Source: Phoronis australis (taxonomy: Eukaryota; Animalia; Phoronida). From it: a stretch of DNA of 64,000 nucleotides. Both the position numbers and the translations under genes were made by a program. Shown here in pieces: positions 127-63,698 of this stretch. The DNA is taken from positions 715,566 to 779,565 of the forward strand of contig NMRA01000125.1 in NCBI GenBank assembly GCA_002633005.1, given 5' to 3'. The notes beneath the pieces are model-generated. The model had not been told where the DNA came from. It saw only the letters and a program-made list of their open reading frames with translations, and did no database searches. Within the stretch, counting starts at the first letter, position 1. Each line of letters opens with the position of its first letter.

Positions 127-1138
127 CTAGATTCTCTTTGCCATACTATCACAGTGACACGATGTGTCGTAGACAGTGCGAAAAATTGAATATCACCTGC
201 TTAATAGTAGTAGTAATCTTGTTTTAATATGGACTGTTGAACGCATATGGTCAATGTTTACTGAACAATTTACTTGACGTACGCAACAAATCGGTCAACT
301 ATTGACTATTTAAACTCCCTCATAATATCGTGTCTATTTTCGTTCGAAATTGTTGTGTGCGTATATTGTAGCAATTATCAAACAATGCATGTGTTTTAAT
401 GGGGACCTGTTGACAGAAAACTTGAGGACCATGAAAGCTAGCTTTTCGAACCTTTGAGCCACAAGATTGATTTGCAGTTTTATTGACAGAACAATAATCC
501 CGACTTAAGATCAGTTAACGCATCATTAATAACTTGGACAAGATCATTTTCTTTGAAACAAATAATGTCGTCAGTCCTCAAAATACGGAACAACCACTTT
601 TTTACAAAGTTTGCTAAATCATCAAGAATGACTAACGCTGTGGTAAAGTTTATCAATGGCACTGGAAAGGACCACGCACAAGGAAGACAAGGCCAGAGGT
701 GAAATATCCAAACTCGAAATAGTCCTTCTTTAATACCAACGCAAGATAAATGTCCATTATTATTCTGTGCTAAAGTATATTGTGGTTTATGCGTATGGTT
801 TCTCCTGACCTCTTGATTCAAAGTACAAATTGGGGTAAAACCTGAGTACTCGAGTAAAAACGCGAAATTTCAGAATCGAACTTATGGTCTTAAAGCTGGG
901 GTCATCAAGTACAAATTAGACCTAAGCAGCCATCTAGGTAAACAATAACGTACTCCAACACAGAAAAACAGACACTTCTCTTACATAAGAGTAGAACGGA
1001 AAATGTCAAAATAATTTTGATTCTGCTTTCGAGTACACAACATTTGACTCCGGACTCAGACCTTGAGCTGCGCTCCGTACACCCGAAGTACTCGCGAGAA
1101 TAAAATGTGTGATCACGAGCTTCGCTCATCAGGTGATA
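127..1138 (-). mobile_element. Putative Helentron-type non-autonomous element (HINE-like)
   Basis: Short asymmetric subterminal inverted repeats TATCACCTG (191-199) and CAGGTGATA (1130-1138). Minus-strand 5' end TATCACCTGATGAGCGAAGCTCGTGATC carries a GAGC-GAA-GCTC hairpin; the minus-strand 3' end has the subTIR, the hairpin GACAC/GTGTC (156-168) and CTAGTT. Confidence 0.4.
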
Positions 1139-1872
1139 CATGTACATGGCGATATCTCATGAAGATTTTAATTGCCTAGCTGGTCTTCCATTTTCACTGT
1201 GACGAGATTCTGGCGGTTGTGGATCCCGCTTTCTAAGATCGCCAGGACTTGTTTTAGCTGGAGAATGAGAATCATTTCAGGAGAGAAATGTTTTTACAGT
1301 GAGAAGTGACAGAAGTAGTTTTGGATGAAATCACCAAAACAGTTTTCAAAGTCAGTTAGTGACAGTGTACATTTGTATGTTTGAAAGTGGCGAGGAGACG
1401 ATCTAAGCACGGTGTTTACCTGCACTTTTAACTGACCGACTGGTGACTCATACACAATGGTTTACCGTTATGAATATGACATATCACATGCGCCCCATTG
1501 TGAGATTACAATTTTTTATGACGTATGTTTTCCAAATACTTTATTGCATTCATTCCTGTATCATAATAATAACATATTTTCGTTTACTCCTACTCTTCTT
1601 TTAACGTGTAGAAACAGAGCTTGAATCGCATTATTGCGGGGCATATATGGGACATCCAAGATATTTCACATGTTAAATGTCATTTTTTATGTGATCACAT
1701 GGACTCGTCTCGTCGGCAATGGTCTGGAATACAGTTTGATACCCGAAACTGTTTCTCAAAACTCGGGCACGTTATATCCGACCATTACCAACTCGTCGTC
1801 TACGTGTTACTCCTTTTTCTCGCTTTAGCACGTTCCCAAGGTGTCTTGTTTGTGCAGTACTACTGTAAAACT

Positions 1873-2015
1873 CGTAGGCGGCACACCATACGGGCAGGAG
1901 GGCTATAGCTCCCACTTTATTCAGTGCTTCGCCACCCATAATTGTATATGAACGGTGCATCACGGGGGACTGGGGGACTACAGCCCCCACTTTTGTCAGT
2001 GCTGCGCCGCTCATG
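1873..2015 (+). mobile_element. Dimeric MITE of ~70-bp units, copy 1 (hAT-like CATGGGCGG...CCGCCCATG ends)
   Basis: Two tandem units each containing GGG(A)CTAYAGCYCCCACTTT..TCAGTGCT.CGCC.C.CAT; clearly homologous to 48963-49106. Confidence 0.75.
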
Positions 2016-2632
2016 CTGCTCCGCGGATCTGCATTTCCAGCTCTCTTATTGGTCAGTCCAGAACCCTCTCTGCTGCGAATCTGTTTAAGTTCTTTCATTA
2101 TTGATGAATGGTTGTCACTTGTTCTGAGGAATGCTTTGAAATTTGACGTGTTCAACTCAATTTTCAAGTTTTTCAGTTAATCAACAACTAGTTGGATGAA
2201 CATTCACGTGCAAATCGCAGCCATACATTTAAACAAAGGAATTTTACGTGAATTAACCACGTGCCATTGTACATACTGTATTCATACAAACAGTATACTT
2301 GCATGCTCACAAGAAATAAACCAATTAACCTCCAATTTTGAAAGCCATTTTTCTGTTTTTTTGTATTTCCCCATATACATACATTCTCATCCCCAAAATT
2401 CAATCAGCCCATGTTCTCCTGTCCAATTGTCTCAGACAGGCAACCGTTGTTTTGAGTGCGCAATATCCCCAGTCATTATGTTCTCCCTTCCCGACATTGC
2501 ATGCCTCAAAACTCCAGGGACCCGATGATCCCTCTTCCCTCTTAACTCTCTGTATCTATGCTACATGCACCTAATTCCTAATTTTGGTGACATTCTAATT
2601 TTTTATACCTGGGGCTCAGAATTATTTTGTTA

Positions 2633-2887
2633 CATGTGCGCACCCAGGGGTGCTCGGGGGGGGGCTCGAATAAGCCCCCCAATTGGCAATGGGCACAAGG
2701 GTTCGTCTTAGAGAACCAAAACGTACGAAAAAATTAGAACTGAGAAAAAAGTCCACTAAAGAGACACGAACAACCAAAACTGAGCGAATGCACAATTCAT
2801 AGTTGTGAAAGTACCTTGTAAATCTTAGTAGAAGGTCCACATTCTCAACAATTCGAGCCCCCCATTTTTAGGCTGAGTGCGCGCCTG
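2633..2887 (+). mobile_element. MITE with 5-bp TSD (hAT5-like), copy 1
   Basis: TIRs CATGTGCGCACCCAG / CTGAGTGCGCGCCTG; perfect TSD TGTTA at 2628-2632 and 2888-2892; internal homology (AAAAGTCCACTAAA, GAATGCACAATTCATAG) to copies at 60425 and 63699. Confidence 0.85.
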
Positions 2888-2965
2888 TGTTAGCCGTCTA
2901 TTTTACCTTTTATTAAAATCTGGCCTTAATTTTGTTCATGTCTTTTTAAACAAAAGCATGAATTC

Positions 2966-3495: not shown

Positions 3496-4900
3496 TGGGA
3501 CTTAGGGACGATCTCATTTTTTCAAATAGCATTGATGCTGGTGCATTAATCAATCCACTATATATTGCCACACCATACTTTAAAGTCAAATCAACATTGC
3601 ATGAATGCATCAACATTCTAGAGTATAAAGATGTTCTTTAGAATGGTCAAAACCACAGGTGTCACTACTTATATAATTTGATAACACCGTAACATCGATT
3701 TGCCACGTGACACTTTGGGATTCACAATAATTCTGTTAAGTCATGCGCAGTAAATGTTGTGTTGATACAATGCAAGTGTTTGGACGACAATCTTGATGAT
3801 ATCAGAAGTCATGTCTGGAAGCAAGATTGTCAGTCGTTACCACAATACTGTGTTAAATTATTTTTTAAACAGGGTTTCTCAACTGCACTGATGAAAATTG
3901 TGTGTATATCTTATGACTTAATGCAAATAGATTAGCCAAATTTAACAGACAATTTTAACGGAAATGTACAAGTTAGAACATAAAGATTCTTACTTCCTTT
4001 ACGAATTACAATGGTTTTGGCATTAAAACAGCAAAACGAAATTACACTGTACAGTGAAAAAGTCTGTGTGACTGTAACACATATTTACGTGTAGGAGATA
4101 GTGTACGCCAAAACAGGTTCATTGAATTTTCGTGACAACATATGGATGTTACTAAGAAGTCATTACCATACGCAGGCGGCCTGCAAGTGTTCTTGCAACA
4201 AAACGTTGGGCTTCCAGAGCAAAACTTTGAACATGGGTCACCATATACACTGTACTAGCTAAGTGATTGGTCTGTCCTGTCTTGTCATTTGCGTACATGT
4301 AACATGTTTCTTGCTTTTTCTTTGCAGTAACGTGTTGCTCGATGATCTTGATGCGATCAAAATTGAAAAAAAAAGATAATTCTATATTTTTTTGAATATT
4401 TGACACTTCCTCTTGAAATCCAGTGTTCGTCAGCTGATAGTATTTTTTCCTTCTTAAAACTGTTTGTTGTTTGTCCGTATAACAATTGCTTTTATTAATC
4501 TCATACATGACTTGTTGTATAAATTGTTAATGAGTGGAGAAATTAACAACATGAATGTATATATTTATTGTATTAATTAGATGATCGATTTAAACGAACA
4601 CTTTTTATTATTTGCCAGTCTCTTTCGGAGTGCATCCAGCTATTCGTGAATGAATTACAGCGCATGCGCATTCCCGGACGACAAATTAAGGGAGGCGAGG
4701 TGATAGATTGGAGTTAAAATGGCTACCACCTCTCACGAACCTCATTACCACCCTCAAATATCCAAATATATCCGTGAAGCCGTGTAAACAACCAGTAGTT
4801 TACGTTCTAAAGTTACAAATGTTAAACTGCTACACGAACGTTGGATTTTCTTTCAAATCTGTTGTAGTCAACTTGGTTGACTGCGTGTGCAAATTCTAAA

Positions 4901-5360
4901 CTATCGGAACTTTCCAAATATAGGCCAACTGGCGGATACTTGTAAAACGACATTTCAAAAACGTAAAATAAATCAGGATACGCTGATGTATTTTCGGAAA
5001 GCGGGACAATTTTTCGGAAAACGGGGCGTATTTTCGGAGACTTTATCAAACACTTTGTGGCGCAATTTTTGTTAAACAAATATTATTTGGCAATTTTTAC
5101 CAAATAATGACATCCTTTTTCATGTATGTGGTTGCACATGTACCTCACTAGTAAAAAATATTCTTCCATACATATTTGGCATTCTATTAAACACAGTATG
5201 TGAAAACGGCCCTCCATACTATGCTAACAAAACAATCCATCAGATTTTCAAAACATGCAAACAATTGCCGAAAATGCGCCCGTGTGGGTACTTTTGGAAA
5301 ATTTTCCGAGAACACACCTATGGGCGTACTTTTGGGCCTATTTTCGGAAATTCCCAACAG
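4901..5360. mobile_element. Degenerate MITE with ~30-bp TIRs and many TTTTCGGA/TCCGAAAA subterminal motifs
   Basis: CTATCGGAACTTTCCAAATATAGGCCAA versus the reverse complement of the right end CTGTTGGGAATTTCCGAAAATAGGCCCAA; TTTTCGGA recurs at about 4991, 5012, 5031 and 5341. Confidence 0.55.
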
Positions 5361-5979
5361 TATTGAATATCACATTTCGTTTCCGTCGTCTTTGTTTTCG
5401 AATGTCGCAATTAGTGAACAGGTTTCTCCCTGCTAGAGGTGTAAATTGTTCGTTCCGGTCATCTTCATTTGCAAGGAGTAGAAGTGTTGCTGAGTTACAT
5501 GTATATGGAAACTCTGCCGGGTTTTTAAGTTACTGGCAAAAGCGGTCGGAAGCTCACTTCAGTCGCGCTAAAAATAACAAAACTGAACATTGCTGAAGTC
5601 ATTTTTGGTAAAAACAAGTCCATTAGCGTGTTAAGTATAGCAGCTGAACGGGGTGAGGCTGAGGCGTCAACCAGTTAAAAACAACGACTGACAAAGTTTG
5701 TAAAGCTTGACATGTTAGTAGCTTATTGTTGTAATTTTGAAGTTGTTAGTAGCATTTCAAATAGCTAGACCTTACGTATTACAGTGTACTAAACTAGGAT
5801 TGATTGGAATTGGTTGAGTGCAACTTAACATTTTGGCATGTACAACATCCAGCCTCTTCCCCAAGCCTCAGGATGGAGCTGATCAGTTTAGCCGCCATTT
5901 GAGGCGTGGTTATGGAAATTACATGTACCTTCTGCGCAATAATTGGTCGCTGGCCTGACGTCATTAAAACAAAGGCAGC

Positions 5980-6800
5980 TTTTTATTACTTCCACAGGCG
6001 TTGTTACTGCCATTCATGAAGCAGAGGACATTCCCAAAGTTTTGGTTATGGTCTGAAATAAAGGTTATCCGTGTACTTATTACTTGGCGGAATTCTTGGA
6101 ATTCCAACAAGTATGTTGCTCTGACGTCAAGCTTCTTTGTTCGCACTCTAAAGGTCGCAATTTCGTCTGATCTCAACAAAACTTTTACACAACGCGTAGA
6201 TCTAAAAGTCCTAGAAGCCTATTGTTTTTCGTCATGGTTTGATTCCAAAAATGGCAGACGTGGCGGCCATTTTGTTTCCAAATTCAGGTTCAGATGCTTA
6301 TAGAGACCTAATTGTTTGATCTACAAGGCTGAAAATTAGTACAATTATTACAACTGCCACTTGCTATATGTGCGCTGTAAATCATTAACGCCCGGTCAAA
6401 GATGGCGGAAACACGGTCATTTGCGCATGCGCACCTCGATTTCTGCTCGAAAACGTTTTCTCCTGTAGAAGGCGCGTTATAGGAGCAATTGCTTCGAGAT
6501 TTTTCAGGTATTAGTTTTCAGTGACAAGCTCTTATACACTGCAGCGGAAGTTGCTTTCAAGATGGCGGATCTGACGTATTTTACTCATATACAATCGTTC
6601 TGCGGTTGCATTTTGAACTAAATGAGCAAATGACTTGAATTTTTGCAGGTGGACTCCTTTATGTATACTCTTTCAAATGTTTCAAGAAAAAACACAAAAT
6701 TCCTATTTTTCGAATAATTTACGGAATGTTGCAAAGCTATTAAATTTAACAGAATTTTGAACGGGCTTTCACAAGGTATTTTGCATTTGTCACTAGGACG
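5980..6800 (+). mobile_element. Decayed Helentron/HINE-like element with ~155-bp internal tandem units
   Basis: AAAATGGC/AAGATGGCGG recurs at about 6248, 6399 and 6559 (150-160 bp period); GCACTCTAAAGGTCGCAATTT...AAAACTT resembles internal repeats of bivalve HINEs as recalled. Boundaries approximate. Confidence 0.35.
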
Positions 6801-6969
6801 TATACTTTTTGAATTATTCGAGATTTTCTGTTAGCGATGTTCCTTTGTTGAGCTTCACTTGGTGTATTGATGTTGGTTTAGTTTCTATTGAACAAGACTG
6901 TAGCCTATTTCTTACTGATTTCTGACCTATACGTTCGTCGTATGAATTTTATCATTACTTGTATTGTTC

Positions 6970-7015
6970 TTAATCGTCGCCATCATCGTCATATTCATCA
7001 TCTTCGTCATCATCT
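6970..7015. repeat. Degenerate (CAT/CGT)n microsatellite
   Basis: ATCGTCGCCATCATCGTCATATTCATCATCTTCGTCATCATC. Confidence 0.7.
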
Positions 7016-8629
7016 CTATGGTACATGTAGTCTTAATTTCGCCAAGTATCGCTCCTACGAGCGCTTTCATTTTCAATTTTTTGTCGTAGAAATTCACCTG
7101 CTTTCGAATCAAAATATATAATTTTGCAATAGCTTAGAACTAAATTGCTACAATTTACCGTTAGTTTTCATTCTATATAAAATTGCAGATAATTTATAAC
7201 TTATATTACTCGTTATGATATTCCTGTGATTTCCGCTAAAACGTTACAGAACGCTGATCCATTTCATTTCTTTCAACCAAGCTTCAAATGTCCATCTTGA
7301 GGCTTTGTAATGAGGCAGGTAAAATATCTTTGAAATCAACTATCTCTAACGTAAGTCCCGTCCTCTTGTGATCTTTCTTCTTACCAAATACCAAGTATAC
7401 AGTCATTCCATTGCAATTGTCCAATTAAGGTTGTTTAGATAAGTCTTTTCTTAAATCCTTCTGCTTGAACTACTACCTAATCTAATTATTTGGCAGTTGT
7501 ATGAATCTGATGTCACCGCTGTTAAAACTGATGAAAATCTTGCCAAGATTGCGTTTGCGTATGGCAAGTTGAGCGGATTTGTGACGAGAGAGGCCAGTAG
7601 GTCTGACGTCGGCACCTTGCAGTGTAGCAGGGTAATCAGTGCGCCGGGCGCATTTTCCCACCGGCTTGTCTCTAATTGCAAACATACACTTATACCTACC
7701 AATTTTTCATGACTGCCCAAGTGCTTGGTAAAAGTTCATGTACATGTAAATGCAGGCGCGACGCTGAGTTCAGGGGAACGCTGAGTTCTTTTCCACCTCC
7801 AGTGAGTTTGAAGTCAAGTGTCGCGTACTGAAAGGCCCAAGTAGACATTGTATGGAATCCGTTATCAGCTTAGTGCCCACGTTTCGTCAATTGCTGTCAA
7901 AACAGTTCTATTTGTTTTAGATAAAAAGTACCAAATACACAAACATGGAAATATTTGATTACGAAAATACAACTTCTTCCTTCGAATTGCGTTTTGGCTA
8001 GCTGCAGATTTGTGTTTGTACTTCCAAGTTCCTGCAACCCACAAAATTGCTCAAGTACTGAAAAGTCGAAGTACTCATTGTTTAATCAACAGCTAGGAAC
8101 AATGAAATATTCAAAAAAAGATTGTTAACAAATCCATTTTGAATATTACATTGAATTCGTTATTATTCGGCAAAAACAGAGTTGTTCAAGAAACCCAACA
8201 ACGGCTGCGCTTGTTAATTTTTTTTGCACTGAATAATTAGCGGGGTGTCCTCTTCGGCTGGTCTCAGGATCTAAGGAACTGTTTTATTTTTGTGATTAAT
8301 TGCAATACGTAAATAACATTTATTATTATTTCGTGCCTATCAGTCAACGAGAAGCCCGGATGTGTCCCATTCCAAATGTTCAAGAGCATTACTAACTATT
8401 TTCATTGAAGATAAAAACAACGCATTCCTGTTACTTTAGTGACCCCGGTACCTTATTCGCAAAATGTTTTTCAATTGTATGTACATGTATTGGTGTACTC
8501 TGTCTTTATATATAACATATGAATGCATAGTAGCTTTGTATCGAGGCGAGGCGTCTTTCAGCCGGTTTTGCAGCCCTGGCGGCCTGCTTGGAATTGACTG
8601 ACGCGTATATTATATGTATTACCGCATGG

Positions 8630-8656
8630 TTTTGCCCGCAACGGGGCTAAACTAGT
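8630..8656 (+). mobile_element. Helitron/Helentron-like 3' end
   Basis: Hairpin TTTGCCC-GCAACG-GGGCTAAA followed by CTAGTT; 5' end not identified. Confidence 0.3.
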
Positions 8657-11065
8657 TCCAATCATATTAGATATAGACAGCATAAACAACAATTTCTTAT
8701 AATGGCAGAAATAGCGTTCGCGAAACGAGCCAATCTATCAGTTTGTGCACAGCGTTTGGATATTACATAATCGACATGAAATTTGAAACTACTCCGTGTA
8801 TTGTTTTATGAGATGTACGGCGCGCTCCTTCAATCGCTGATTCGTTTACATTACTGTATTGCTCATACCATCTCTATTGGTGTTATTGATTGGTCACCAA
8901 ATACGAAAACTAAACTTTATCGATGAAAGAGCAATAAAGTCACGCTTTTCTTAGGCTTGTGTAGTTGATAATTAGTTACTCGGTATTTGCCATTAATTCA
9001 AAACCGGCACAGCAATTGCTGAGTACCCTAATCTCACGTTTGGCATTTCAGGCGACACCGATACACGTGACTTCTTGATTTCCAGCCATTGGTTACCAAG
9101 TCTGGGAAGAGTCCACTGTGTAGTAAAGAGGGACATGGTTTTCTGTGGTAAGCGTTGTTATAGTAACTCTCTCGTGTGTGGTAACGTCAATTTATCTTGA
9201 AACTCTTTACTCGCATGCGGTTATAAGGCGTGTCCAGCTACCTTTTGTGTTGTCGAAGCATTGTTAGAGGGCATTAGATGTATATTGGTTTGCTTATGTC
9301 CTTGTCAAAGCTTTGATCTGCAACACTCCCTGTGAAGCAAGGTTGCTAAGGTAAGTCTTCTTATACCGAATAACTGTTGCGTATTTAATACCAGTTGTGG
9401 TCGTGAATACATGCACAAATACCACACAGCATTTTTTTTACAATGCGTGCGCTTTTATATTAATTTTTTTCGATCCACCTGCCACGCAACGACATTACAT
9501 TGGATGAAGATCTGAGACTGAAATGAGCAATTTAGTGTGCCTTAAATCCAACAAGAATCCATGTCCCAGCCATGTAGCTCACTACCGTTGGTCAAACATA
9601 CAGATGAACGGGGGCTCTGGCGACGATTGACTGCTTTCACAAATAAACGAACTTTTTGGTTCGTTAGTGAAAACGCGATCTTGATATCCGACACCAGTTC
9701 ATGTTCAGGTTAAGGTGCAATATGCTACTATTCGAACCTCCCCCTCATGCCTATCGTTAAACTTAGAGACAGGGTATAGTATTGGACAACATCATACCCC
9801 GGAAGCTCATAAATGGAATAAACGTAGATGTTTCACACTTTGGTCTTATTCAGATTTCCCCCAAACTCTGCAAGCATACACTGTGAAACAACGGAGTCAG
9901 TTTATTGAAAGATAGAATCGATAAACTATAATCCTTTTGTCAAATATTTGAGCAGAGTATTTTAAATTCCCCTTTACTTTGCCCCGTTGCTTGAACGCTA
10001 CAAAACTTAACTAGGAAAACAACAGAAAACTATGGTTCTTCATTAGCTGTTCAAAACGGTCGTAATTTCCAATTACTATCACATCGCCTAGGGAATGCAT
10101 TTGAACATGCGGCGGGATGAAACAAGCCGTGGAGGATGCTTAAACGCAAAGTGTACGCGTTTAACAAAACAGATCAAAAGACACATTTTTTGCGTCTTTT
10201 TGTGATTGATTTCCCGGGCTTTAAAGTAAACGTCATTCTCAAATCATTGCTTTAGGGCGTGATTAACTAAGACTAAATACTAATGACTGTTAACCCTAAG
10301 TCCAAGTTCAAAGAATCACCCGCGATCTGCTGTGTTCATTGGTAGCACGAAACGCGCGACAAAGCATATTTATCTTGCATACATGGAGATACAACCCCAA
10401 AACATATTCATATACGTATGCATACAGTATAGATGTTTCACAACCGGAGCCAAAGCTGCATTCACTGTTGGCGCTCGTTGGCTAACGTTGATCAGTAAAT
10501 AGATCGTGTAGTTTTTTGGAGTTCTATGGCCATATAAACAACGTTTGATTCATCTTCGTGACACGTCATGGCTGCCCCCATGGCGATGACTCCCATATCC
10601 TGGAGTGCCTTACACGTATAAATGCGAAAGGATGTGCAACAGGGAATTTTAGCAAAATTACGACTAACTGGACGTGCGAGCAAGAATTTTCTATTTTTTG
10701 TAGCGAATTACGTCACAAACTGACGACTTCACTCACGTCCTTGATAATAAGAGATCTAGTTGTTTATGGTCCACGGCGTTTCCGCGTGAAACCTACTTCT
10801 TCTTGTAATGCTTATTACTCTTTATATATTTGTGCAAACAGTTCGTAACAAATTTGTTGTATTTAAAATAGTTTTCAATTGCCCAAAAGACCAAATCCGT
10901 TTTTTGTGTTGGCATTAATGACGCGATTACTTTGGAAATCGTCTTAAGTTAAGGTGTGACAAAGAGAGAATTGTGAGTTTCTGAGTGATTCACTAAGGTT
11001 TCGATTAAAATTGACATCTTACCAGCAGCTTCTGTTTTTTCATCGTCACTCAGATTCCATTTTCT

Positions 11066-11366
11066 TTAAAAAAATGAAGTAATTTTCTTCATTTCACAGT
11101 GAAGCAGACGACGGAAACGGAGTCGTAGTGCGCAGCGCCACTGCCGGTCGCCTTGGATACCGCGGGAGAGCCTATACTTAGCCACAGTTTCGATCCGACA
11201 CTTGAAATTGGATCTGAGCCCCCCCCCAAACACATTAAAACTGCACACATTTAAATCTTGTTTCCGCCGTATGATGTTTATTACCGGTCGGGTTAATGAA
11301 TAAACTGAACATTTCCTTACGCTCTTGCTTTTTTATTTTTTGCGGCCCCCCCTAAATCCGCCTATG
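11066..11366 (-). mobile_element. hAT-like repeat family with one CATAGGCGGATTTAGGGG terminus, copy 1
   Basis: About 300 bp of reverse-complement homology to 52350-52693 (ATGAAGTAATTTT, TGCGCAGCGCCA.TGCCGGTCGCCT, CTTAGCCA, ACACTTG.AATTGG..CTGAGCCC, AAATCTTGTTTC). Confidence 0.8.
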
Positions 11367-12536
11367 TGATTATAGCAATTTTGAATGTCACCTTAACGTT
11401 TTCTGGTCAGCATTTCTTCAAGTTTTAACTCGGTTTGTTTGCTAGAAATCTCATGCGTACAACTGTGTATAAAAGTTCTGTACACTACGAGTTCATCTTG
11501 ATGTCGTCAGTAATAAGACACACATGGCTATGATAAGCGAGAATGTGCATTTATATACGTGTATTATGACTAAAGTTAAGACAATCGCATTTAATAAGGC
11601 ATATAGAATCTCGTTATTCCGTCATGTTGATGCGACATTATTCTCAGTTAGCCAAAGGCACATACATTTTCATGCTGTATCACGTGATTTGAATGGCATA
11701 GATTTGTATGACTAACTTATGAGAAACCACATTGGAGTATAGCGTGCCATATAAATCCTGTGAATGGCGATAGCCGTCCCAAGATTTAGAGTCAAGAACA
11801 GTAACAGTGCATGTTCATCACTGCCAGTCCCCAATAACATATTTGGTAGGTAATTTTCCTCCCTGACGCATCTCTGCGTTCTCATTGAAAATGCCCCTTT
11901 TCACAGATCCTCTCCTGACTAGTACATGTACTTCGCCTTTCACACGCCCTTATGAGCATTATTTTTTCTCATGAAGTGCAATTGATGCACTCTTTAATAG
12001 GAGGCGTGGGTACTGTGCATAACTGTTACTAATGGTACAACTGTGGTTCACGAGGAAGGAAAGCTGAAAGCGGCTTTGGTGTGGGAGAGCGGAGAAGACG
12101 TTACCTTGCCGTGAATAATTAATGCATGGCGCTTGTTTTTAAAAACAAGAATTTGTATTTGATCACCTGCCACCGAAACTTTTCATTCTAGAAATTCTCC
12201 AGCAGCACATTCAAGAGCGGTGACTCTAAATTCCCGGCCTGGGATGGTGGCGAGAATCTCAGTGGAGACGCGGAAATGTAATCGTTTCCACCCCCTTGAC
12301 ATTATAGCTTCATGTTCTGCATAAGCCGCGTGTTTCCTGATGTCATTGTCAGTGCTAAGTTTTTAGCGAGTTAATGAAGTAAAATGATATGTACAGATGT
12401 TCTACTCGCACGGGCGAAAGTGGAGAACGACACATGTGGCGTGCAGAAGACGTCACTTGATTTATGATTTGCGAGCAGGTTGAGTTACTTGCTTTTCCAT
12501 GTCGCCCGACGGTAGTTATTCTAAGAAAGGTGGCCC

Positions 12537-19063: not shown

Positions 19064-19081
19064 GTTCCCTTACTGAGTATC

Positions 19082-48962: not shown

Positions 48963-49106
48963 CATGGGCACCGCACCATAGGGGGCTGGGGGGCTATAGC
49001 TCCCCACTTTTTTCAGTGCTACGCCGCACATGATCTATAGGCGGTGCACCAAAGGGGGGCTGATGGGGCTTTAGCCCCCACTTTTTTCAGTGCTGCGCCA
49101 CCCATG
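48963..49106 (+). mobile_element. Dimeric MITE of ~70-bp units, copy 2
   Basis: CATGGG...CCCATG termini, two tandem units, flanks GTGAA / TTGAA (4/5 match, possible 5-bp TSD). Confidence 0.75.
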
Positions 49107-51989: not shown

Positions 51990-52349
51990 AGAGCGTACAG
52001 CACCACGACGATATCCGTTTTTTTGTTAAGCAAGTGTGACTGCATTTGGAGATCGAAAATAGTACTATTCTTGTGTGAATTGAGCAAGTTGGTTGTTGTG
52101 GATTTCTGGGAGTTTCCGATTACAAACCCAAAAGAGACTTCCTGAACTCTGATCAGAAATAAGAAAGAATAGTGAATAGAGAAAATTTTGGTCAAGAAGA
52201 GGTATATTTTGACGCGTACATGTAGCTCGCCGTAAACGCAACGAGTGGGACTTTTCATTACAGTGAGCATGGTCATTCCAGATTTAGGCTCGTTGACAGC
52301 TCAAGTATATGTAATCAAAGTCAGGCGTTTCTCCCAAGACATACTTGAC

Positions 52350-52693
52350 CATAGACATATTTAGGGGAGGGGGCAGGGCCTCCCTTGGCGGAGTGCAAAA
52401 ATAAAATAGTAAAAGCATGAGGAAATATTAAGTTTCTTAATTAACTCCGGTGATTAACGTGATACGGCCGAAACAAGATTTGGAAATGCATAAGTTATAG
52501 TTTGTGTGTTTGGGGAAAGGGCTCAGTCCCAATTCCAAGTGTCCGATTCAGACCACCGTCGCAACCGTAACGGTAACTATGGCTAAGTTATGCCGCTCCC
52601 GGTCGATGTGCGTGTGATTTCCCAGGCGACCGGCAATGGCGCTGCGCAATAACTACAACTCGGTGCAATGAAAAAATTACTTCATTTGTTAAG
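52350..52693 (+). mobile_element. hAT-like repeat family, copy 2
   Basis: Starts CATAGACATATTTAGGGG; homologous to 11066-11366 in the opposite orientation. Confidence 0.8.
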
Positions 52694-52900
52694 CAAGCGC
52701 GTGGTTAATGCCGTCATGAAAACGGATTAGGTCTTTTGGGCATCTTAAGACTGTTTTAAACACAACTTTTGCTACGAACTGATTGCGCAACATATAATGC
52801 GTGTAATAAACATTGCGGAACGAAGCAGGCTCGCGCTCGAACGCTGTGGACCATAAACAGTACATTGTATGTCTCCTATAGCGTTATCTCCAAGTTGGAA

Positions 52901-52959
52901 GCGTGGTGGTGCAATGGAAACGCATGCGCCCGCTAACCAATGGGTGGCGAATTCGATCC
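52901..52959 (+). mobile_element. Decayed tRNA-derived SINE head
   Basis: A-box-like TGGTGCAATGG and B-box-like ATTCGATCC with CGCC...ACCAATG between them, similar to invertebrate SINE2 heads as recalled. No cloverleaf or SINE body seen. Confidence 0.45.
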
Positions 52960-55900
52960 TTGAAACTTTTTGAATTTTCACAAACGGCGATACAGCGCTT
53001 AAACTCTATAAATGCTTTAAAACAATATTTGCTCATTTGTTGATTTAAAAAATCTGAACTGAGCGAGGACATCCTGGATGACCCGTGGCGTTCATACAAA
53101 CAGTGTTATCATATATGAATTCAATACAAGTAAGTCATTTGAGTATGTGTCACGACCACATAAATTATGTGCTTGCTTATGAATTTGTTCGCCATCGAGA
53201 ATAAAATGCCTAAAGCAGGTGAAAGCGAGTTTTTAGTGGCAGCTTGATGAGTTGAAAATTTGCCGTGCGGCCACGTAGGATTTCAGAATACGATCTGGGT
53301 CGTGTGGATTTTGCCGCGCTAGCTGCAACTAACGACCTGACCAAAGTACAGCCGTCGAGGGCTTGTTATACTTCAGAGTTCACGGAAAATGCTTGCTTTC
53401 AGAAGCAAAAACAACATATTCACCTGAGAGAGACACAATGTTGGTCCCCCTTATCATGTCTTAGATACGCCACTACTGGCAATGAGCTTGTGATGCTTGT
53501 CTTGTTTAAGTGTCGAACAGAAAAATAACTCAGAATACCTGCATGTACAAGTGTTTTACTTGACGATCTGTCAATAAAGAATCAATGGCAATTTGTAGTC
53601 TAGAATACTACACAGACAATTAATTACTTTAGAAAATAGTTTTATGGCGTTGCTTGACCCTCACAATATTGGTTTTAGAGACGTAATTTATTCAAGTATA
53701 CGAAATAGTCAGTGAGATATTGCGAAATAACGAAAATTCTGTAATTGCGGCACTAAATTGGATACGTGAGACATTTTTCAGCATGTTAAAATCAATTTTC
53801 TCACCACATTTCCTTCACCATACAATTTAGAAACTGATGTCGGGGAGAGGGTGCACGGGAACCATTTTCCGACTAGTTTAATGTGTATAGTTTATGAGAG
53901 TGTACGTTCTGAAATGATCGAGTTCAGCTCATTCGTCTTTTACAAAATGTTGCGATAAGTTCGGAAGTACATCGGAATGAGCACAAACCATTGATGTGGT
54001 CACATGTTGATAATACGTTATTGGTGATCCTTCTCTGGGCTCGTTTGGTTTCAAACGCCGAAGTTTGATTGAAAACAAAGCGAATTAAACATCTGTAAAG
54101 CCATCGACATTCTTTCAGTACAATCCGCCATGTCGCTGTTGTAGACTCTAACCCATGTGTGGAGGAGACGGGTTGGTGGTGGGGTAATTTGCCAATTTTT
54201 TAATGCATGAGATTTCGACGTAAAAGGCCTACCCGATATGCTAATTGACGTGCAAGCCAAATACAACGTATAAACCCGGCCACACTGACATCAAACGCAG
54301 AGGGCCGAGGTCATCAAAAAGTCGGCTACTGTTGACGTTGTAATGACACAGTTCGTCATTATCGATGCCCTAGATTTTCTGTTTCAATATTGTGTTTTAG
54401 TAGAAAACAGATCAACTCAATATTCACTATAGGGGGTGACACACCATTAATAGTTTGAGAGTGAAAACCATTTCATCTGTATGGCCGGAACGACAAGGGA
54501 TCCATGCGATACATCTGAACGCCCAACATTTGTACTTCCACCTCTTGTGACATCCAGTGGATTTCGAGTTGTCCCTCGAATTTGTTGCCAGCTAAACGCA
54601 TAGATAAAATCATTTTGGGGGGAAATTGATTTTTTTGCTTTCAGAGTGTAAATTGGTAGCATTGTGTATTTCCTAAAACACTATAATCAAGCAGTCGTCA
54701 TTTGTAACAATTACTTTAGAAACAATTACGAAGATTATTGCGCTCATCTGGAGACAAGAATCCCATCCGGACACTCATATATGTTAAATTATCGATCACT
54801 CTGCTAAGCATTAATATTTTAGACATGATTTTACCTTAATTAAACAAGAAAATCTGCCTGATAGCAGATGCCACTATTTTAAGTTTGCTTTCTGTCAGAT
54901 TCCAATTTCATGAAATGCCAAAGCGACAAAAACTCAAGACTATTTTTCACTTTAAGTGCAAGATAAATTCGTCAAGTCTTAAAATCTTGCCAATACTTTT
55001 GAAAATTATGCCAACATTTTCTTAGCATCGTGCTAAGATTTTCTTTAGAAAGTCTTCCCAAAGTTGTCAGCAGTTTATGTACGAGTGCCACTTTAGATGC
55101 TAGACTGCGGGTCAAAAGCCGACAGCAAAAATGGAGCTGCGAAGGAGTGCTTTGAAATACTGTAGCAACAACAACTTTTGCAACAAGATAGCACACGTCA
55201 GAAGAGCCTGGGTTCAAAATATAGAATCCAACATGCCTAAGTTATGCGAGAGCGCAGTGAAAAACGCAAGTTCAAACACACATCGAGCTTGAAACGCGAG
55301 AAGTGGTGAGCCCCAGCCAAACTATTGACTCAAGGCAACGAAGTCAGTGTCACCCTCGTGTGTGAACAGTTATCGCTGCGTCCAAGACTAGCAAGCACCA
55401 AAGCTTCACAATAACGTACGTGATTCGTGTTTTTGTCGTCGCTGATACTCAAAGTATTTGCAACCATAAACAAAGATTTCAGCGTTTTTAGAGGTCAACT
55501 TTAACTCGTGAACCGTTACAGGTACCTCTGAAATGAAGAACAATGCACCTTAATACGAATGCCCCGTCTCCCACGTTCCCCCGGTTACCTGTCAAAAATC
55601 TGCGAGCATGCGGAAATTGCTTATAACATTCCGTTTACATAAAAATTCGTTGGTTTTTGATTTGGATGTTTATGTATCTTCAAAAATCAACTGATTCATA
55701 GATTAAATTTGACATTTAGAATCTAATCTTGTAAAAATTGATGATATTTCAGTAAACTTAGTTGCAACTTGAAGTTGGAAAAAATCTACAATCCGATCCT
55801 CAAATGGTAAAGTACACTTAAACGATTTTTGCCTATCTAAAATAACTCTCAAAGAGAGGAAATTTGGACAGTTCTAAAATATATACTCACAATTCAAATG

Positions 55901-58900
55901 ACAATAAATGTATTGTGTTTTGCATTAGGTACGAGATTTGTCGTTTAAACTCACAAACAGGTGATCAAAAAGGAACTAAGTAATTAAACCAAGGTAAACG
56001 CATTGCTCATGCCTGTGGAAACGATGGTTGGTTTCTGATTTACATGTTTATGTATCTACAAAAATAGAATGATTTATAGACGATTTTTTCATATTTAGAA
56101 GCAAATCTTGTGAGAAATTACGGTGCTTCACTGAACTTAGTTGCAGGCTGACATATGGAAAATTCGATCTATCTTCATATCCGCAAATAAATAAGTGTCC
56201 TAAACGATTTTTCTGTCTATCTGAGTCGGTGGCTATAGGAACGGGGGGTATAGTGGTGAAGTAGAAATGATTTGTGTCCCCCAAATGTTTTTGACTTCAT
56301 ACGGGCCTGTAAATTTATCGAAAGTGCACAGTTTCTCGGATAACCAGTAAGTCGTGATTATAACCGTGTTTCTACATAGTTTTGATGTAAATAAGCCGAC
56401 TGACCTTGTCATTGATTGACCGACCAAGAACTGGAAGCCTAAGTTTTACACCAAATTCGAATGCCTGTGAAGGGTTAGAGGTTAGGAAGAGTCGCGCTTG
56501 TTGATAGGCTTACCACAAATAACCTTTAGTTACGACACTGGAATCTTTCGAAACAACTATGACTAACTGATCAGATTTTGATACTTTAATCAATTGAGAG
56601 GTTTTCAACATTTTATGTAATGAATTTTTAATTGACAAACGTTTATTTAAAAGCCTCTGTGATTAAATGTACGCAATAAAAACACCTCTTTCATTTGACC
56701 TAGTATGTAATCGTCAGGGAGGGTAGTAGTATGTAGCTTCGTTCCAGTCTCCATCGCACAGTAGGCTTCGTAGAAGCCGAAAATGTATGTGATAACCACT
56801 GAAGTTCGTGACTGTATTGATTTCCACAAAGCAGAAAGTCACGTCCATTGATTATTACGAGCACTGCAGATGTACGTGGGCAGTGAGATTGTAAATAATA
56901 TGACGTTACCCAGCGGACAGCAAGATCGAATTAAAGTAAAAGAAAATAATTGCCAAGAGGGGACCAGTCTGTGCCCTTTTGGCGGTCAGCCTGTGCTGCT
57001 TATGTTACGCGTCCTCGTCTCTATGACCAAACATACATGTAAACCAGAATTTATCGGAGCCGTCTAGTCTTTGCCATGGTACTAGTCTCGGAGGGCCAAG
57101 ACCGCACGGCGAATAGTCGGACATCGATTACGCTGTGCCTGTAAACGCTCATTTAAAGTTGGCATGCCTAAATTTTGTCGAGTGTGTATACATGTACGAT
57201 GCAAAGTGGAAGGAACTTAAACTTTTATTTCCTGTAGAACATCGAACTAGTCGTTTGCATAACAGGGGTGGACCTGTATAGATTATGTAAATGTATGTGA
57301 AAGTCACATATCTCATGACATGCATGTATGTAGAGTCAAGATGTAAAAACACGTTCACGTGACACTGGGCTAAAGTAATTGTTTAATATTATATTCGTTC
57401 CTAGTGGTTAAATTCATGCAGCATATCTTTTAAATACTAATGCTTAGCCCAGTCATAAAGGCCTAGTATGTTTCTTTTAAATGTTGATGAGCTCAAACAC
57501 AAAAATACCCTCACGTTTTTGTTCACCTCAATGTGTTTTTAAAAACAAAAGCATGGGTGGCATCAGTTGGTGTTGTAAAATACAAGAAATTTAAAAGCAG
57601 CGTCAAATGGGTGGTAAAATAAATTCTCAGTACACAAAGCCAAAACTGTTGACATTTCTCAAACGAGAGAACCTCTTGTTTGGAATTTGTTTCCGAGCGT
57701 GAAGTTGATCCCTGGAGACTGGAATTCAAAATCCGTCGCGTAAGGAGCATATTCGGGACGTATGTGCAGATACATGTAGGAGGCACGAAGTGTTTCGCGA
57801 GTTTGTGTCTGCTGGTCCGGCACTGGGATTAAAGAGAATCAAACCAAAAAATTAGAAGTCGTATCAACCCTTGAACAGAAGAGCGATAATACAGACTGGT
57901 GATGAATGTAACTCATAAAGTACGGAAGAGACGTATTGATCATTAAACGCGAATGCAAGCGTCCATGAGCATATGAATTCAATGCCCGCGCATACACCGT
58001 TCATCGCAAATGAAACAATGCATTGATTGAAATACTAGAATCACCGTTTTATGATTGGCTATTAAGTTGATGGTGTTCGACGAATCCGTGGTAGACATTT
58101 GCTACCAATCTAACAGCGCTTTGGCTAGGTGCGGTGTGGTAATTACCTACTCGAAGCTTCAATAAAATATATAAGCGTTTTCTAATTAACTGTTCTTTCA
58201 GTTGCTTTGATTGTTTACATGACAGTGACGAGGTGCAGCAGACAAGGAGTGGCTAGTCAGGTAATGTTAATTCCTTTAAAACCTTGTTATTAACATTCTT
58301 ATACACGAAACATACAAAAATGGAATTTGCTTGCCTTTGAAAGATTTTCCAAAACGTAACTAGTTGAAATTTTACACTTGAGTTTTCGTCATGTAATCAG
58401 GGACTAGTATTAGTGCTATAACTACCGCGTCGTAATGAGATAATATGTGAGGAGAAATAGACACGGCGGGTTATTAGATTCAATTTTGTGGCTGATACAC
58501 GTACGCCTAGGTTTTATCTAGACTGAGTCTCATAAATAGGACCTGATTTATCGTTCGAACGTAAGTTCCCTAGACTTTGGAAATGTCTACATATATCGAA
58601 CAAGCAACAAATAGTCATACAGGAAATATTCAGACAAATCCCTCCTCACTAATTAGTCCATAGATACCTCTATGTTCCACAGTGCAAGTGCATTCATTAG
58701 TGCCATTTCATGTGACCTTGCTGTAGCCACATGAACTGTCCTTCGTGGGAAATTCGCTGACCGATTTTTCTAGTGTTGCTCCTTCACAAGTAAATTAAAA
58801 AACGAAAAGCTGACTATCGTATGAAACAGCAATAAGCAACATATTCCACGCCTCACTGAATAAGATATATTTATACAAGCAATAAGCAACTCACAGTTAT

Positions 58901-60424
58901 TCTTAAGTCCTTGAAGTCTCCGCAGGTGAAAACAAAAATGGCCGAGAGTCGAGAGTTCACTTACCGAGGAGCATCTGTTAATTACTTGAGAAGACAGAGT
59001 TCGCCAAAAGAAATTAAGAGAGACTCCACATAAAAACAGGTAGAGTCTATACCCAAAATCACAGATTTTTGAGACTTAGCACATGAGTTTGATTTGGTGA
59101 GATGCAGAAAATCTCGCTTTTTAAGAATTTCCTTCCATTATTTCTCTTTTTTGACCTGCACCTCCATTTTGCAAAAAACGGGCGCATAAGTAGACACATT
59201 TGAATGCATTTTACTTGCACGTAGAGCAAGCTGATAACAAATGAGTCGTACGGTTTAAAAGGACTATGATAGAATAATTTAAAGGCACAACTTTCAGAAT
59301 TCATTTGTGGCAAAAACGGCTATTTTGAAGGTTTTCACTGAAGCCATTTCGGTCAAATTCGATACTCTGTGGCAGCCATATTGCATCTTTCCAAAATTTC
59401 AGAAAGTTCACCGTAAATCTCTGAACTTTCATATTCAGGTTTAATTTTTATGTTTTATATGCAAAACATAAACGGTACTGATGCACTGAGTGATGTAACG
59501 TCCGGGTTCCCAAAACACTTTCATAAGCACGCAAAGTTGCCCGCAGGAGTGCGTAAGCTACTTGCACGTTTAAAAGAATATGAATTAGAAATATCGATGA
59601 ATTATCAACCACGATACATTCATCAAATGCATGTCAAGATCGCAGGCACAGCTCGACTGAAAACTTTAGGGCCACTGGGCCTCAACCTCACCCAAGGAAC
59701 CACGCCATAGCCCGGGTCGAAACTACAATGTAAGTGGCCACCATGACCCTGCCAGTCTTCACGAAGTCAGGGAGTCACATTCAGTCTTCTTAAATTTAAA
59801 ACCGCCGTTGGTCGCCGCAATCCTGACCCGTGCCCCAGATATTGTCCTTGCTTGAGAATGAGTTGTGAGCAGACAATCAGAGCAATAAATTGTCGGAATT
59901 GTGAACTCTCGAAATAGTGAATTTTCGGAGCAGTGGACCTTCAGATTAGCGGACCTTCGCAGAAGTGAACCTTTGGCATAGTGACATGTAACCCAAGAAA
60001 TTTTTGCCATCAATTTTGTTGCTCGTATGAAGTCTGCGGGGCAGTGCACCAGTGGCAATGATTGACAAGAGAAGGCTTTCTTCATTGGCCAAAGTTGAAG
60101 GTCTCGGCCTACTTTTCCTTAATAAAGTGAAAATCATCGACGGGGTTTTCCCAAGTACAAGAAAACACGGTAGGTTAGTTGAATGTCTGGGTTTTGAGCA
60201 CGACGTGTACACGCATGCATGTCAATCCACCCCTCCAAGATCAACGTGGACACTGGATGAACAACATATTTAGATATTTGACGATCACTTTCGATTCAAT
60301 ATTTGAAAATGCCTGCAATTCACCGTACTACTCTAGCAATTCAACCAAAATAACAAAATAACAAATCTCAATTTACTGCTTTTTTGTTTCTTGGCCGATT
60401 TTAAGGCATTCACACCTCACTACT

Positions 60425-61049: not shown

Positions 61050-61113
61050 GTTCTGGACCTTTTCCGCGGGTGGAGGCTCGCTCGAACCCCCGAACCCCCC
61101 TGGGTACGGACCT
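61050..61113 (-). mobile_element. Isolated terminal fragment related to the hAT5-like MITE family
   Basis: GCTCGCTCGAACCCCCGAACCCCCCTGGGTACGGACCTG resembles the end of the 60425-60693 copy. Confidence 0.55.
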
Positions 61114-61159
61114 GAAGTGTTTAATTGCATATGTGGATATCAAAGATATCTATGGTGGG

Positions 61160-61570
61160 TGTAGTTTTGGTCTGTTGCACAGACAAATCGTTGATTAATT
61201 CATATTCAAGAAATATGAATCGGAAACTTGCGGTGGTACCTTTTCAGGATGCATTTTTCTATTGTCGCTGACTTTTGTACGTTGATGTCCTGTATTCACA
61301 CACTATGAATATATACACCGGCTAAAACGGCCAGAAGTGAGTGCATTGTATGTGCACGCGGCTATCAAACATTATTGCAGAGACGAAATATTTGCTGTCA
61401 CGCCACTTGCATGACAAAGTTAAAATCGTTCACAGTACTTCATTTTATTTCTCCGTTGTAAAGATAACCAATGACTGCCGGGGTAACATCAGCTAGTGAT
61501 AAAACGCGTGCTACTGAATGATACATGCGTGTTCTCTACCCCCTAGCGGACACGCAGGAAACCAGCAAGG
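61160..61570 (+). mobile_element. Same MITE family, copy 3 (5'-truncated, more diverged)
   Basis: CAGACAAATCG, ACGCCACTTGCATGACAA, AAAATCGTTCACAGT, GTTGTAAAG.TAACCAATGACTG and the terminal CACGCAGGAAACCAGCAAGG. Confidence 0.85.
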
Positions 61571-62284
61571 TAATTAGCTTGCAAAACACGACGTAAATAG
61601 CATGTATCTTAGAGAAAAAGCCGACAACAGCATTACTAATTACCAATCCCTGAAAACCACACTGATGATTATTGCTTATTACAAGGTTATGAGCGGTATG
61701 CGTATTTCGTCTATGTGATAGAAGGCGTCACTGTTTCTTTACATGAAGACTGCGGACGGGTTTAGAAGCCAAATCTGCCTTGCTCTCGTTTTTACTTTCG
61801 TTGCGAGAGCCACTGGCATAGGAATGGAGGGTGGGGCACCCATGGGCTATGGTCTTCTATTCAGTTCATAAAGTTTGTCAACTCAGTCAAAAGTTATTGT
61901 AGTTTTATGTTCAACTGTAATATCCCCGCAAATTGCTACAAATTTTACATGTAGTCTCCACTGGTCGCCAGAAATTTGGCGTTCGCATCCCCCGGTCACC
62001 CCAACATAGAATATTTCTGACAATGCGGCAAACAATCAACGTCAATAGATAACAATTCATGACAGACAATTCTATTAATGATTTAGTTCATGGCACTTGG
62101 TCAACAAAGTTTATTAATGACTCGGTTGATGACAGATACTAGGTCAACAAAGTTCATCACAGGTAACGGTCTGGACTTCAAAGAAAGCGAACGACTGCCT
62201 CTGTGGCGTAGCAAGGTGGNTGGTAAAGAGGTGCTCGCTACGCTGCTAGACTGATTACTGTCATTTCAGGTGTTCAGGGTACAG

Positions 62285-62447
62285 ACACTTTCTGCTTGGG
62301 TGAAAACCGGCACCAAGTTCTCTTCCGTGAACATTGCAAATATTATTTGACTCCACAACTGCTCCCGGTCATTCAGAAATTCAACAACTCAGGCTAGTAG
62401 TTACGACTTATCCTCTGACACTGGCTTTGATTTATGAGGTACTTTAC
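62285..62447 (-). mobile_element. Decayed CR1/L2-like LINE reverse-transcriptase fragment
   Basis: Manual minus-strand translation gives KVPHKSKPVSEDKS*LLA*VVEFLNDREQ, resembling the CR1/L2 RT consensus KVPH....GI.G.LL.WI..FL.DR.Q; a frameshifted GVPQGS-like remnant follows. Confidence 0.4.
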
Positions 62448-63698
62448 AGCATCTCAGAGGTTCTGAATTGTTTTAGGCATGATTGACTAAAGCCACAAAG
62501 CTTTCGTCATCGCACTATTTTGTTGAAAATCTCTAAAGGACAGGAAGGACCTTCGGTCCACATTTTGTCATTAAGAGAATGATACCCTTGACCAGTCTTT
62601 ACAAATAAAACTTCTTACAAGTTAAAAATTCAAAGGTATTTATTTACTCTAAAAAGTGTTTTAATTAAAATGTTAATTTAAGAAAAAGAGAGATACATGA
62701 TTTATATATCCTCAAACCCACGGTTAACTGACTCACTGGGCAAAGGTCATCGGTTTCAGTTTTGATGCCGACCGCGTGATGCATCCAAAGACAACTTGTT
62801 TTCATTTCAAAGACCTTAGACTTGATTTTTATAAATATTAAGTGCAGAATTCTTGTTCACATGCTTTGTTCTTATTGTCAGTAATCTCTAGTCATCATTT
62901 CCGAAGTGGACAGTTTTGCAAGACAATTTTCACTATAATACATGCAAGGCTGGGGCAAGATCATTTTTGCTTAATCATCATGATTGACTCTTAATTTTCT
63001 ATACGTTCAAAAAGTTACATAAAGCTACTAGGTGCAATATGGCAGTAAGAGGGTCTTAACAACAGCCACACAAATTAGCTAGGAAAAGTGGTGGCTGGAT
63101 TGTCTGCCCTGTCTAGCAGAAAGCCGTCGACTTTGAATACATGTATATGCCAAATAATATGCACAGTATACATTGGTTATTCCAGCCACCACAGCACAAC
63201 TTCCATTATATTTAGTAAGTTACTTACTTTTGTCGCTGAACACATTCAATTTTCAGGACGGCTAATATGATGAATTGCGGTTTTATGCTCCAGCGACGAA
63301 ATTAGGGGTCATTGAGTGCGAAAAAGTGGCATTTAGATTTTTGTTAGGGTACATGTACCTATCCATGTACATAAAATGAATTTGTTTTGAATTTTGACGT
63401 ATAGACTGATTTTTGAAAATGTATTGCTTTTTATATAGACTAGCTCTTAACACGGCAATAGTTTATATACATGTATGCCATTTATTTATTATCGAATGAA
63501 TATTTTATGAAACAAAAAGATAAATAGGCAACTTGAAAAGTTGACACTTCTTTTGGTTGTCGGGATGAACCTGAAAATGTCATACATAGGCTTTATACTG
63601 ACCTATAAAGCGAAAGCGACATCATCGGCGTCAAAGAAAAATGTATACATGTAAAATAAGAAGAATAACACTCGTTTAACCAAGTGACCTACGTGTAC

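What the first reader, a model, noticed from the sequence alone, without database searches (positions are those of the whole stretch)
1138..63653. Window-wide excess of the palindrome TACATGTA, possibly accumulated transposon excision footprints
Seen: roughly 45-50 TACATGTA copies by manual tally (e.g. 1138, 7741, 17416, 17838, 35223, 43639, 46958, 63646), against about 2 expected from base composition (rough estimate). They lie in unrelated contexts, and none was noticed in the GPCR CDS. Known: Tc1/mariner elements duplicate a TA target; those with CA...TG ends and 2-nt staggered cuts (Tc1/Tc3 type) can leave TA-CA-TG-TA after excision and end joining. Inference: this genome carries close to one such scar per 1.5 kb, which implies a very active cut-and-paste family or a dedicated process that converts TA to TACATGTA. 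Either would be a large, poorly described source of 6-bp insertions.
Basis: partly seen in the sequence, partly recalled or inferred. Interest (0 to 1): 0.85.

Follow-up and report, generated by a model that had tools for sequence, protein, structure and literature searches.

The report
Jumping-gene scars every kilobase
The word TACATGTA occurs about forty times more often than chance in this invertebrate DNA, and at all four spots where sister repeats allow a check some sister copies lack about six letters there, so these are likely scars left when a cut-and-paste jumping gene left a TA site, although that gene was not found.

Summary
Confirmed: 57 TACATGTA (54 loci) in 64 kb against 1.4 in shuffles. 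At 4 of 4 loci with a usable paralogue, some sister copies lack the letters: exactly 6 at 43639, 44139 and 17838, net 5 at 46958. With CATGTA removed, the flanks match the published Tc1 target consensus CAYATATRTG (1.80 vs 1.30 matches per half-site, p<1e-4). TACA-N-TGTA is also enriched (13 vs 2.1), as expected of two joined ends. Variants at the outer bases are not enriched. Best reading (0.72): accumulated germline excision footprints of Tc1/mariner-superfamily elements with CA...TG ends and 2-nt overhangs. This scar is known from C. elegans Tc1. The causal element, its transposase and an element-versus-scar allele pair were not found, and no genome was available. A rough budget shows that ordinary transposition rates kept up for a long time would suffice, so an extremely active family is not required. 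The GPCR points to a lophotrochozoan. The scan noted the same word before in sea-urchin, bivalve, oyster and mollusc windows (unchecked notes). Ten literature searches found no genome-scale description in animals.

The parts
1137..63653 (.). 54 dispersed TA(CATGTA)n loci (57 TACATGTA words), inferred excision scars
43639..43646 (.). Scar in the right arm of an inverted-repeat element (43270-43712); the left arm lacks exactly these 6 bp
44139..44146 (.). Scar inside a moderately repeated sequence; other copies lack exactly 6 bp here
   Evidence: 17 of 42 X5 reads (14 starts); 4, 5 and 4 contigs in X1, X2, X4
46958..46965 (.). Scar in one copy of a high-copy MITE-like family (about 46750-47330); other copies lack net 5 bp (+6 with one A lost from an A-run, or +5 with one substitution)
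   Evidence: 124 of 449 X5 reads, plus 213 reads clipped at 46955 that continue without it
17838..17845 (.). Scar in another copy of the same family; the copy at about 61350 has the plain TA, the copy at about 47103 has TACGTGTA (shared older gain, one substitution)
17415..17434 (.). Triple array TA(CATGTA)3: re-hit of a scar or slippage
   Evidence: re-hits 3 vs 1.4 expected, P=0.15
19880..19893 (.). Double array TA(CATGTA)2
4043..59732 (.). 13 TACA-N-TGTA words, likely a +7 sister scar (4043, 4246, 5780, 19842, 21486, 23190, 24432, 30913, 38412, 39736, 50321, 52861, 59724)
   Evidence: 13 vs 2.1 +/- 1.4 in 40 order-3 simulations; same flank bias, p=0.003; no paralogue spanning one was found
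40325..41596 (+). Single-ORF rhodopsin-family GPCR of the prolactin-releasing-peptide / short-NPF receptor type; context only, indicates a lophotrochozoan host

Best explanation
TACATGTA here is likely the accumulated germline excision footprint of Tc1/mariner-superfamily transposons: at 4 of 4 checkable loci some sister copies lack about 6 bp at a TA, and the pre-insertion flanks match the Tc1 target consensus. Inferred steps: (1) an element with CA...TG ends inserts at a TA in an AYR-TA-YRT context and duplicates it; (2) on excision, staggered cuts leave a 2-nt 3' overhang of element end on each flank; (3) end joining keeps and fills both overhangs, giving TA-CA-TG-TA, sometimes with one extra base at the junction (TACA-N-TGTA); (4) the scar is close to neutral outside coding DNA and accumulates, while the element moves on. 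Shown here: the excess, the gaps against paralogues, the flank consensus and the junction-variant family. Not shown: the element, the enzyme and the repair pathway.
For: Excess 57 vs 1.4. Gaps at 43639, 44139 and 46958 and 17838. At 46958 the window copy differs from many other family copies, which points to a gain. Flanks of 108 half-sites: +1 Y, +2 R, +3 T with G avoided (chi2 p=0.0002, 0.0004, 0.001). Matches to TRTG are 1.80 vs 1.30, p<1e-4 against all TA and p<=1.5e-4 against GTA, TGTA and ATGTA backgrounds. This holds after dropping 17 or 19 scar-like half-sites (p<=0.0007). Tc1 fits better (z 5.7) than Minos (4.2), Mos1 (3.2) or Tc3 (2.4); consensuses from the table in PMC2577343. TACA-N-TGTA is 13 vs 2.1, while spacers of 2-12 show no clear excess (at most 5 vs 2.3). 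One-mismatch excess is central (positions 4/5: 21 vs 7.5) and nil at the outer bases (10 vs 10.1). In C. elegans germline Tc1 excision, TA-CA-TG-TA made up 24 of 103 frame-selected revertants, and TACATATA, TATATGTA and TACGTGTA-type variants also occur (PMC4490562 Supplementary Data 3).
Against: No transposase: 0 Pfam hits in 145 stop-to-stop ORFs of 68 aa or more other than the GPCR. No convincing TA|CA...TG|TA element among 15,065 TACA..TGTA pairs up to 6 kb apart; the best are internal to a longer inverted repeat or near chance level. No allele pair seen, but the indel tables were cut (119 and 13 rows hidden) and the source individual looks little heterozygous. Only 4 of 54 loci could be tested. 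46958 is net 5, and 17838 differs from one paralogue by a substitution only. At 43639 a CATGTA lies about 25 bp away and could have served as a template. At 44139 the 25 reads without a listed gap are unresolved. In C. elegans soma the usual Tc1 scar is +4 (PMC12632400); here +4 words are only weakly enriched (63 vs 43.6, z 2.5, 11 of them touching a scar). One-mismatch variants of the outer bases should appear under neutral decay and do not. The central one-mismatch words do not show the flank bias (p=0.14).
Confidence: 0.72

Rival explanations
1. An element-free process: a domesticated or free transposase-like enzyme, or a repair routine shared by marine invertebrates, adds CATGTA at TA sites with no full element ever residing there.
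For: No element or transposase in 64 kb despite 54 scars. One product dominates strongly over +4 and +5 products. The scan's notes report the same word in echinoderm and mollusc windows, also without an element (unchecked), and it is abundant in oomycetes (PMC3520976).
Against: The flank bias is that of a Tc1-type integration target. The budget predicts only about 0.03-3 dead copies per 64 kb under assumed parameters, so finding none is expected. I know of no such enzyme (recalled, not searched).
Confidence: 0.12
2. Local templated insertion or slippage (polymerase-theta-type, or microsatellite seeding in alternating purine-pyrimidine DNA) makes the word without transposons.
For: The word and its flanks alternate Y/R. 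Two arrays exist. A CATGTA lies about 25 bp from 43639. Polymerase theta makes templated inserts at breaks (PMC4490562).
Against: 52 of 54 loci are single copies. No template within 40 bp of 44139 or 46958. Other alternating 8-mers that do not overlap the motif reach at most 14 copies. Templated inserts would vary from site to site.
Confidence: 0.08
3. A transcription-factor site (IRX/TALE homeodomain, or MYB-related as in Phytophthora) reached by substitutions and kept by selection.
For: TACATGTA is cited as the preferred Irx site (PMC3520976 citing Berger 2008; original not held). PsMyb37 binds it in Phytophthora sojae (PMC11134190). 17838 and its 47k paralogue differ by one substitution. 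Few decay products at the outer bases could mean constraint.
Against: Gapped against a paralogue at 4 of 4 testable loci, all inside repeats. Evenly scattered rather than clustered. NACATGTA variants, which keep the ACATGT core, are not enriched (10 vs 10.1).
Confidence: 0.05

Closest known systems
Tc1 germline excision footprint TA-CA-TG-TA of C. elegans (class L in PMC4490562 Supplementary Data 3; Eide and Anderson 1988 as cited in PMC3520976)
   Same: Identical 8-mer, +6 at TA, similar central variants; target consensus CAYATATRTG matches the flanks here.
   Different: There it is one of 26 products at one reporter locus (24 of 103, frame-selected; 10 of 36 in lig-4, 3 of 39 in polq-1), is called rare, and +4 dominates in soma. 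Here it stands fixed at about 1 per 1.2 kb in a lophotrochozoan, and no element was found.
Sleeping Beauty / ZB-type footprints (3-nt overhang, TACAGTA/TACTGTA; footprint words recalled, ZB 0-3 bp in PMC7913693)
   Same: TA target; the SB consensus RCAYATATRTGY also fits the flanks (2.39 vs 1.80 matches).
   Different: The +5 words are not enriched here (16 vs 11.8, z 1.5).
Phytophthora motif-1 / AM-20 TACATGTA, bound by PsMyb37 (PMC3520976, PMC11134190)
   Same: Same word, very abundant in non-coding DNA.
   Different: Read there as a conserved binding site, with the footprint idea dismissed on abundance; the passages I saw report no empty-site test. Here it is gapped against paralogues.

Membership tests
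Tc1/mariner (IS630-Tc1-mariner) excision footprint | Gain at a TA relative to an empty site, leaving TA on both sides | tested here: met
   4 of 4 testable loci gapped against a paralogue; exactly 6 bp at three, net 5 at one. 50 loci untestable.
Tc1/mariner (IS630-Tc1-mariner) excision footprint | Pre-insertion flanks follow the palindromic target preference of the family | tested here: met
   TRTG matches 1.80 vs 1.30, p<1e-4; robust to four backgrounds and to exclusions (consensus)
Tc1/mariner (IS630-Tc1-mariner) excision footprint | Letters between the TAs equal the terminal bases of a resident element (CA...TG ends) | tested here: inconclusive
   No convincing TA|CA...TG|TA element in the window; no genome held
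Tc1/mariner (IS630-Tc1-mariner) excision footprint | A DDE/D transposase of the family in the genome | tested here: inconclusive
   None among 145 window ORFs; genome not searchable
Tc1/mariner (IS630-Tc1-mariner) excision footprint | Same locus seen with the element in one allele and the scar in another | tested here: inconclusive
   Two read layings, two samples, cut tables, second sample about 5-fold depth
Tc1/mariner (IS630-Tc1-mariner) excision footprint | Scar produced by excision with 2-nt staggered cuts in cells | not testable with these tools
   Needs an excision assay
Sleeping Beauty-type (3-nt overhang) footprint | Excess of TACAGTA/TACTGTA | tested here: not met
   16 vs 11.8 +/- 2.9
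Transcription-factor binding site (IRX or MYB-related) | Reached by substitution, with near-variants of the core also enriched | tested here: not met
   Gapped at 4 of 4 loci; outer-base variants 10 vs 10.1
Transcription-factor binding site (IRX or MYB-related) | Conservation between species and protein occupancy | not testable with these tools
   No related genome or chromatin data

The most novel reading that the evidence does not exclude
One fixed 6-bp insertion, +CATGTA at TA, is a standing mutational class of marine invertebrate germlines: about 1% of TA sites, some 300,000 per genome if this window is typical. It is written either by CA-ended transposons that have kept hopping for millions of generations or by a host enzyme derived from them, and it mass-produces a word reported as a binding site for IRX and MYB-related factors. 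The abundant Phytophthora promoter motif could have the same origin.
Probability: 0.3. Interest if true: 0.8.

Novelty: new variant of a known kind. Interest (0 to 1): 0.52.

Why it matters
Excision scars are usually treated as rare by-products seen in reporter assays. Here about 1.2% of TA sites (54 of 4,403) carry one. If that holds genome-wide, scars record past integration sites and target preference where the elements are gone, give a way to measure long-term excision rates and germline repair choice in non-model animals, and form a recurrent indel class that confuses motif discovery. They could also seed binding sites for known factors.

Tried and rejected
Genome-wide counts: no genome held. 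Metagenome scan with a 21-nt end motif of the 46750-47330 family: one hit (L001), no similarity to the window at E<1e-3 and no TACATGTA, a chance match. First read laying (26200-46100, likeness 85) was swamped by high-copy repeats; 12 of 131 indel rows were shown and none was at a scar. In the second laying 12 of 25 indel rows were shown and 43639 was not among them, so that site rests on the arm comparison alone; 44783 and 45096 gave no listed indel. Candidate element 55517-56311 (TA|CAGG...CCTG|TA) matches only 17 of 24 end bases, as many chance pairs do; not accepted. Footprints of CG, CC, CT and GG ends are not enriched (0-1 each). Preferential re-insertion into scars is not significant (3 vs 1.4, P=0.15). 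Hairpin-opening (P-nucleotide) origin rejected: the empty sites at 43639 and 46958 hold no TACA to copy. Among 5 six-bp indels in 4,396 aligned paralogue columns, 2 are the scar; too few, and the pairs include those chosen for scars. Eide and Anderson 1988, Plasterk 1991 and Berger 2008 were not held.
Full report
Observation. The window holds 57 exact TACATGTA words, against 1.42 +/- 1.28 in 100 dinucleotide shuffles and 2.1, 3.1 and 8.4 under order-2, -3 and -4 Markov models trained on the window itself. They form 54 loci (52 single, one double, one triple), spread about evenly (variance/mean 1.14). None is in the GPCR ORF, where 1.13 are expected (P=0.32). No genome is held, so all counts are for this window.

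Host. The one long ORF with a family hit (40325-41596) is a 7tm_1 receptor. Apart from one partial tick protein ranked first at 45% identity, the best named relatives are prolactin-releasing-peptide / NPY-type receptors of molluscs, annelids, a brachiopod and nemerteans at about 45-56% identity. I infer a lophotrochozoan and did not go further. The other 145 stop-to-stop ORFs of 68 aa or more have no Pfam hit at E<=0.01.

Insertion or substitution. Four of 54 loci had a usable paralogue. At 43639 the word lies in the right arm of an inverted-repeat element (43270-43712), and the left arm lacks exactly 6 bp with matching sequence on both sides. At 44139, 17 of 42 reads of a second sample (X5) and 4, 5 and 4 contigs of X1, X2 and X4 lack exactly 6 bp; the other reads are unresolved and include the locus's own. 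At 46958, 124 of 449 X5 reads lack net 5 bp and 213 reads are clipped at 46955 and continue without the word. This is +6 with one A lost from an A-run, or +5 with a substitution. At 17838 the reconstructed empty site aligns without a gap at the TA to the copy near 61350, which has a separate 7-bp deletion, while the copy near 47103 reads TACGTGTA. I read this as an older gain shared by two copies. So 4 of 4 are gapped against at least one sister copy, three cleanly. No allelic indel at a scar was seen, but 119 and 13 indel rows were hidden, the source sample shows few differences over multi-kb contigs, and the second sample gave about 5-fold depth.

What the flanks say. After removing CATGTA, the 108 half-sites prefer Y at +1, R at +2 and T (not G) at +3 (p=0.0002, 0.0004, 0.001), with no signal at +4. 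The Tc1 target motif is CAYATATRTG and that of Sleeping Beauty RCAYATATRTGY (table in PMC2577343, passages read). Matches to TRTG are 1.80 per half-site against 1.30 for other TAs (p<1e-4 by resampling), also against GTA, TGTA and ATGTA backgrounds, and after dropping 17 or 19 half-sites that could themselves be scars or microsatellite (p<=0.0007). Tc1 fits better than Minos, Mos1 or Tc3 (z 5.7, 4.2, 3.2, 2.4); a plain YRT fits best (z 6.5, but it was read from these data). I chose this test after seeing the flank table.

Junction variants. TACA-N-TGTA occurs 13 times against 2.1 +/- 1.4; spacers of 2-12 show no clear excess. These 13 share the flank bias (p=0.003). One-mismatch neighbours total 65 against 39.6, with the excess at the centre (21 vs 7.5) and none at the outer bases (10 vs 10.1). 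The central one-mismatch words do not show the flank bias (p=0.14). +5 words of the Sleeping Beauty type are not enriched (16 vs 11.8), and +4 words only weakly (63 vs 43.6, z 2.5). A fixed TACA and TGTA with a variable centre is what joining two ends would give (inference).

Known mechanism. Tc1 excision leaves non-complementary 2-nt 3' overhangs (PMC4490562, passages). In its Supplementary Data 3, read whole, TA-CA-TG-TA is 24 of 103 wild-type germline revertants, 10 of 36 in lig-4 and 3 of 39 in polq-1. The assay selects in-frame products, so these shares are not unbiased. Somatic Tc1 scars are mostly +4 (PMC12632400, passages). PMC3520976 (passages) calls taCATGta a rare Tc1 footprint and rejects that origin for the abundant Phytophthora motif; PsMyb37 binds that motif (PMC11134190, passages). 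PMC7913693 (passages) gives 0-3 bp footprints for ZB. Eide and Anderson 1988, Plasterk 1991 and Berger 2008 were not held and are known to me only as cited.

The missing element. No convincing TA|CA...TG|TA element is in the window. An illustrative budget assumes a genome of about 390 Mb from read depth, a typical window, a mutation rate of 5e-9, accumulation over 0.06 substitutions per site and 30 critical end bases. It gives about 330,000 scars, 3e-5 scar-leaving hops per copy per generation for 1,000 mobile copies, and 0.03-3 dead copies per 64 kb. The absence is therefore no contradiction, and long-lasting ordinary activity would do. These numbers are assumptions, not measurements.

Rivals. 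An element-free process (0.12) cannot be excluded without the genome. Slippage or local templating (0.08) fits the arrays and possibly 43639, where a CATGTA lies about 25 bp away, but not the 52 single copies. A selected binding site reached by substitution (0.05) conflicts with the gaps and with the lack of enriched core variants.

Novelty. Ten searches of the open-access library showed no listing that describes this word as a genome-wide scar in animals. One search listed only 40 of 425 papers and only 25 of 649, subscription journals are mostly missing, and supplements are not searched. The scan's own unchecked notes report the same word in sea-urchin, bivalve, oyster and mollusc windows and analogous words in diatoms; I did not test them. 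The scar is known; its accumulation to this density appears undescribed. I rate it a new variant of a known kind, interest 0.52.

Noticed in passing
window 31362-33039: 1.68-kb very high-copy element (thousands of X5 reads against about 5 in unique DNA) with sharp ends and short terminal inverted repeats next to TTAA/TTTA; looks like a non-autonomous Kolobok-type element (label recalled). It contains one TACATGTA (31664).
   Followed up: partly
window 17463-18061, 46750-47330, 61161-61572: Three copies of a roughly 580-bp MITE-like family with long terminal inverted repeats ending TA|CC...GG|TA; about 1,000-1,350 X5 reads deep, so a few hundred close copies. Its expected scar TACCGGTA is absent from the window.
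   Followed up: partly
window 12528-14556: 2-kb element with inverted arms of about 190 bp built from AAAATGTAAC-like subrepeats; no Pfam hit in its ORFs.
   Followed up: no
window 19082-19462: 191-bp tandem duplication at 98% identity with an N between the copies (19272); probably a scaffolding artefact.
   Followed up: no
window 36604-42628: Contigs of one sample differ by 18 bp across this stretch (6043 vs 6025 letters), suggesting a heterozygous indel; its position was not shown. 18 is three times 6, but nothing ties it to a scar.
   Followed up: no
window 30079-30446, 36299-36650, 51693-52006: A second three-copy repeat family of about 350 bp at 70-73% identity, with no scar in any copy.
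   Followed up: no
window 40325-41596: Single-ORF short-NPF / prolactin-releasing-peptide-type receptor, about 54% identical to its closest full-length relatives, so the host is far from annotated lophotrochozoans in the database.
   Followed up: partly
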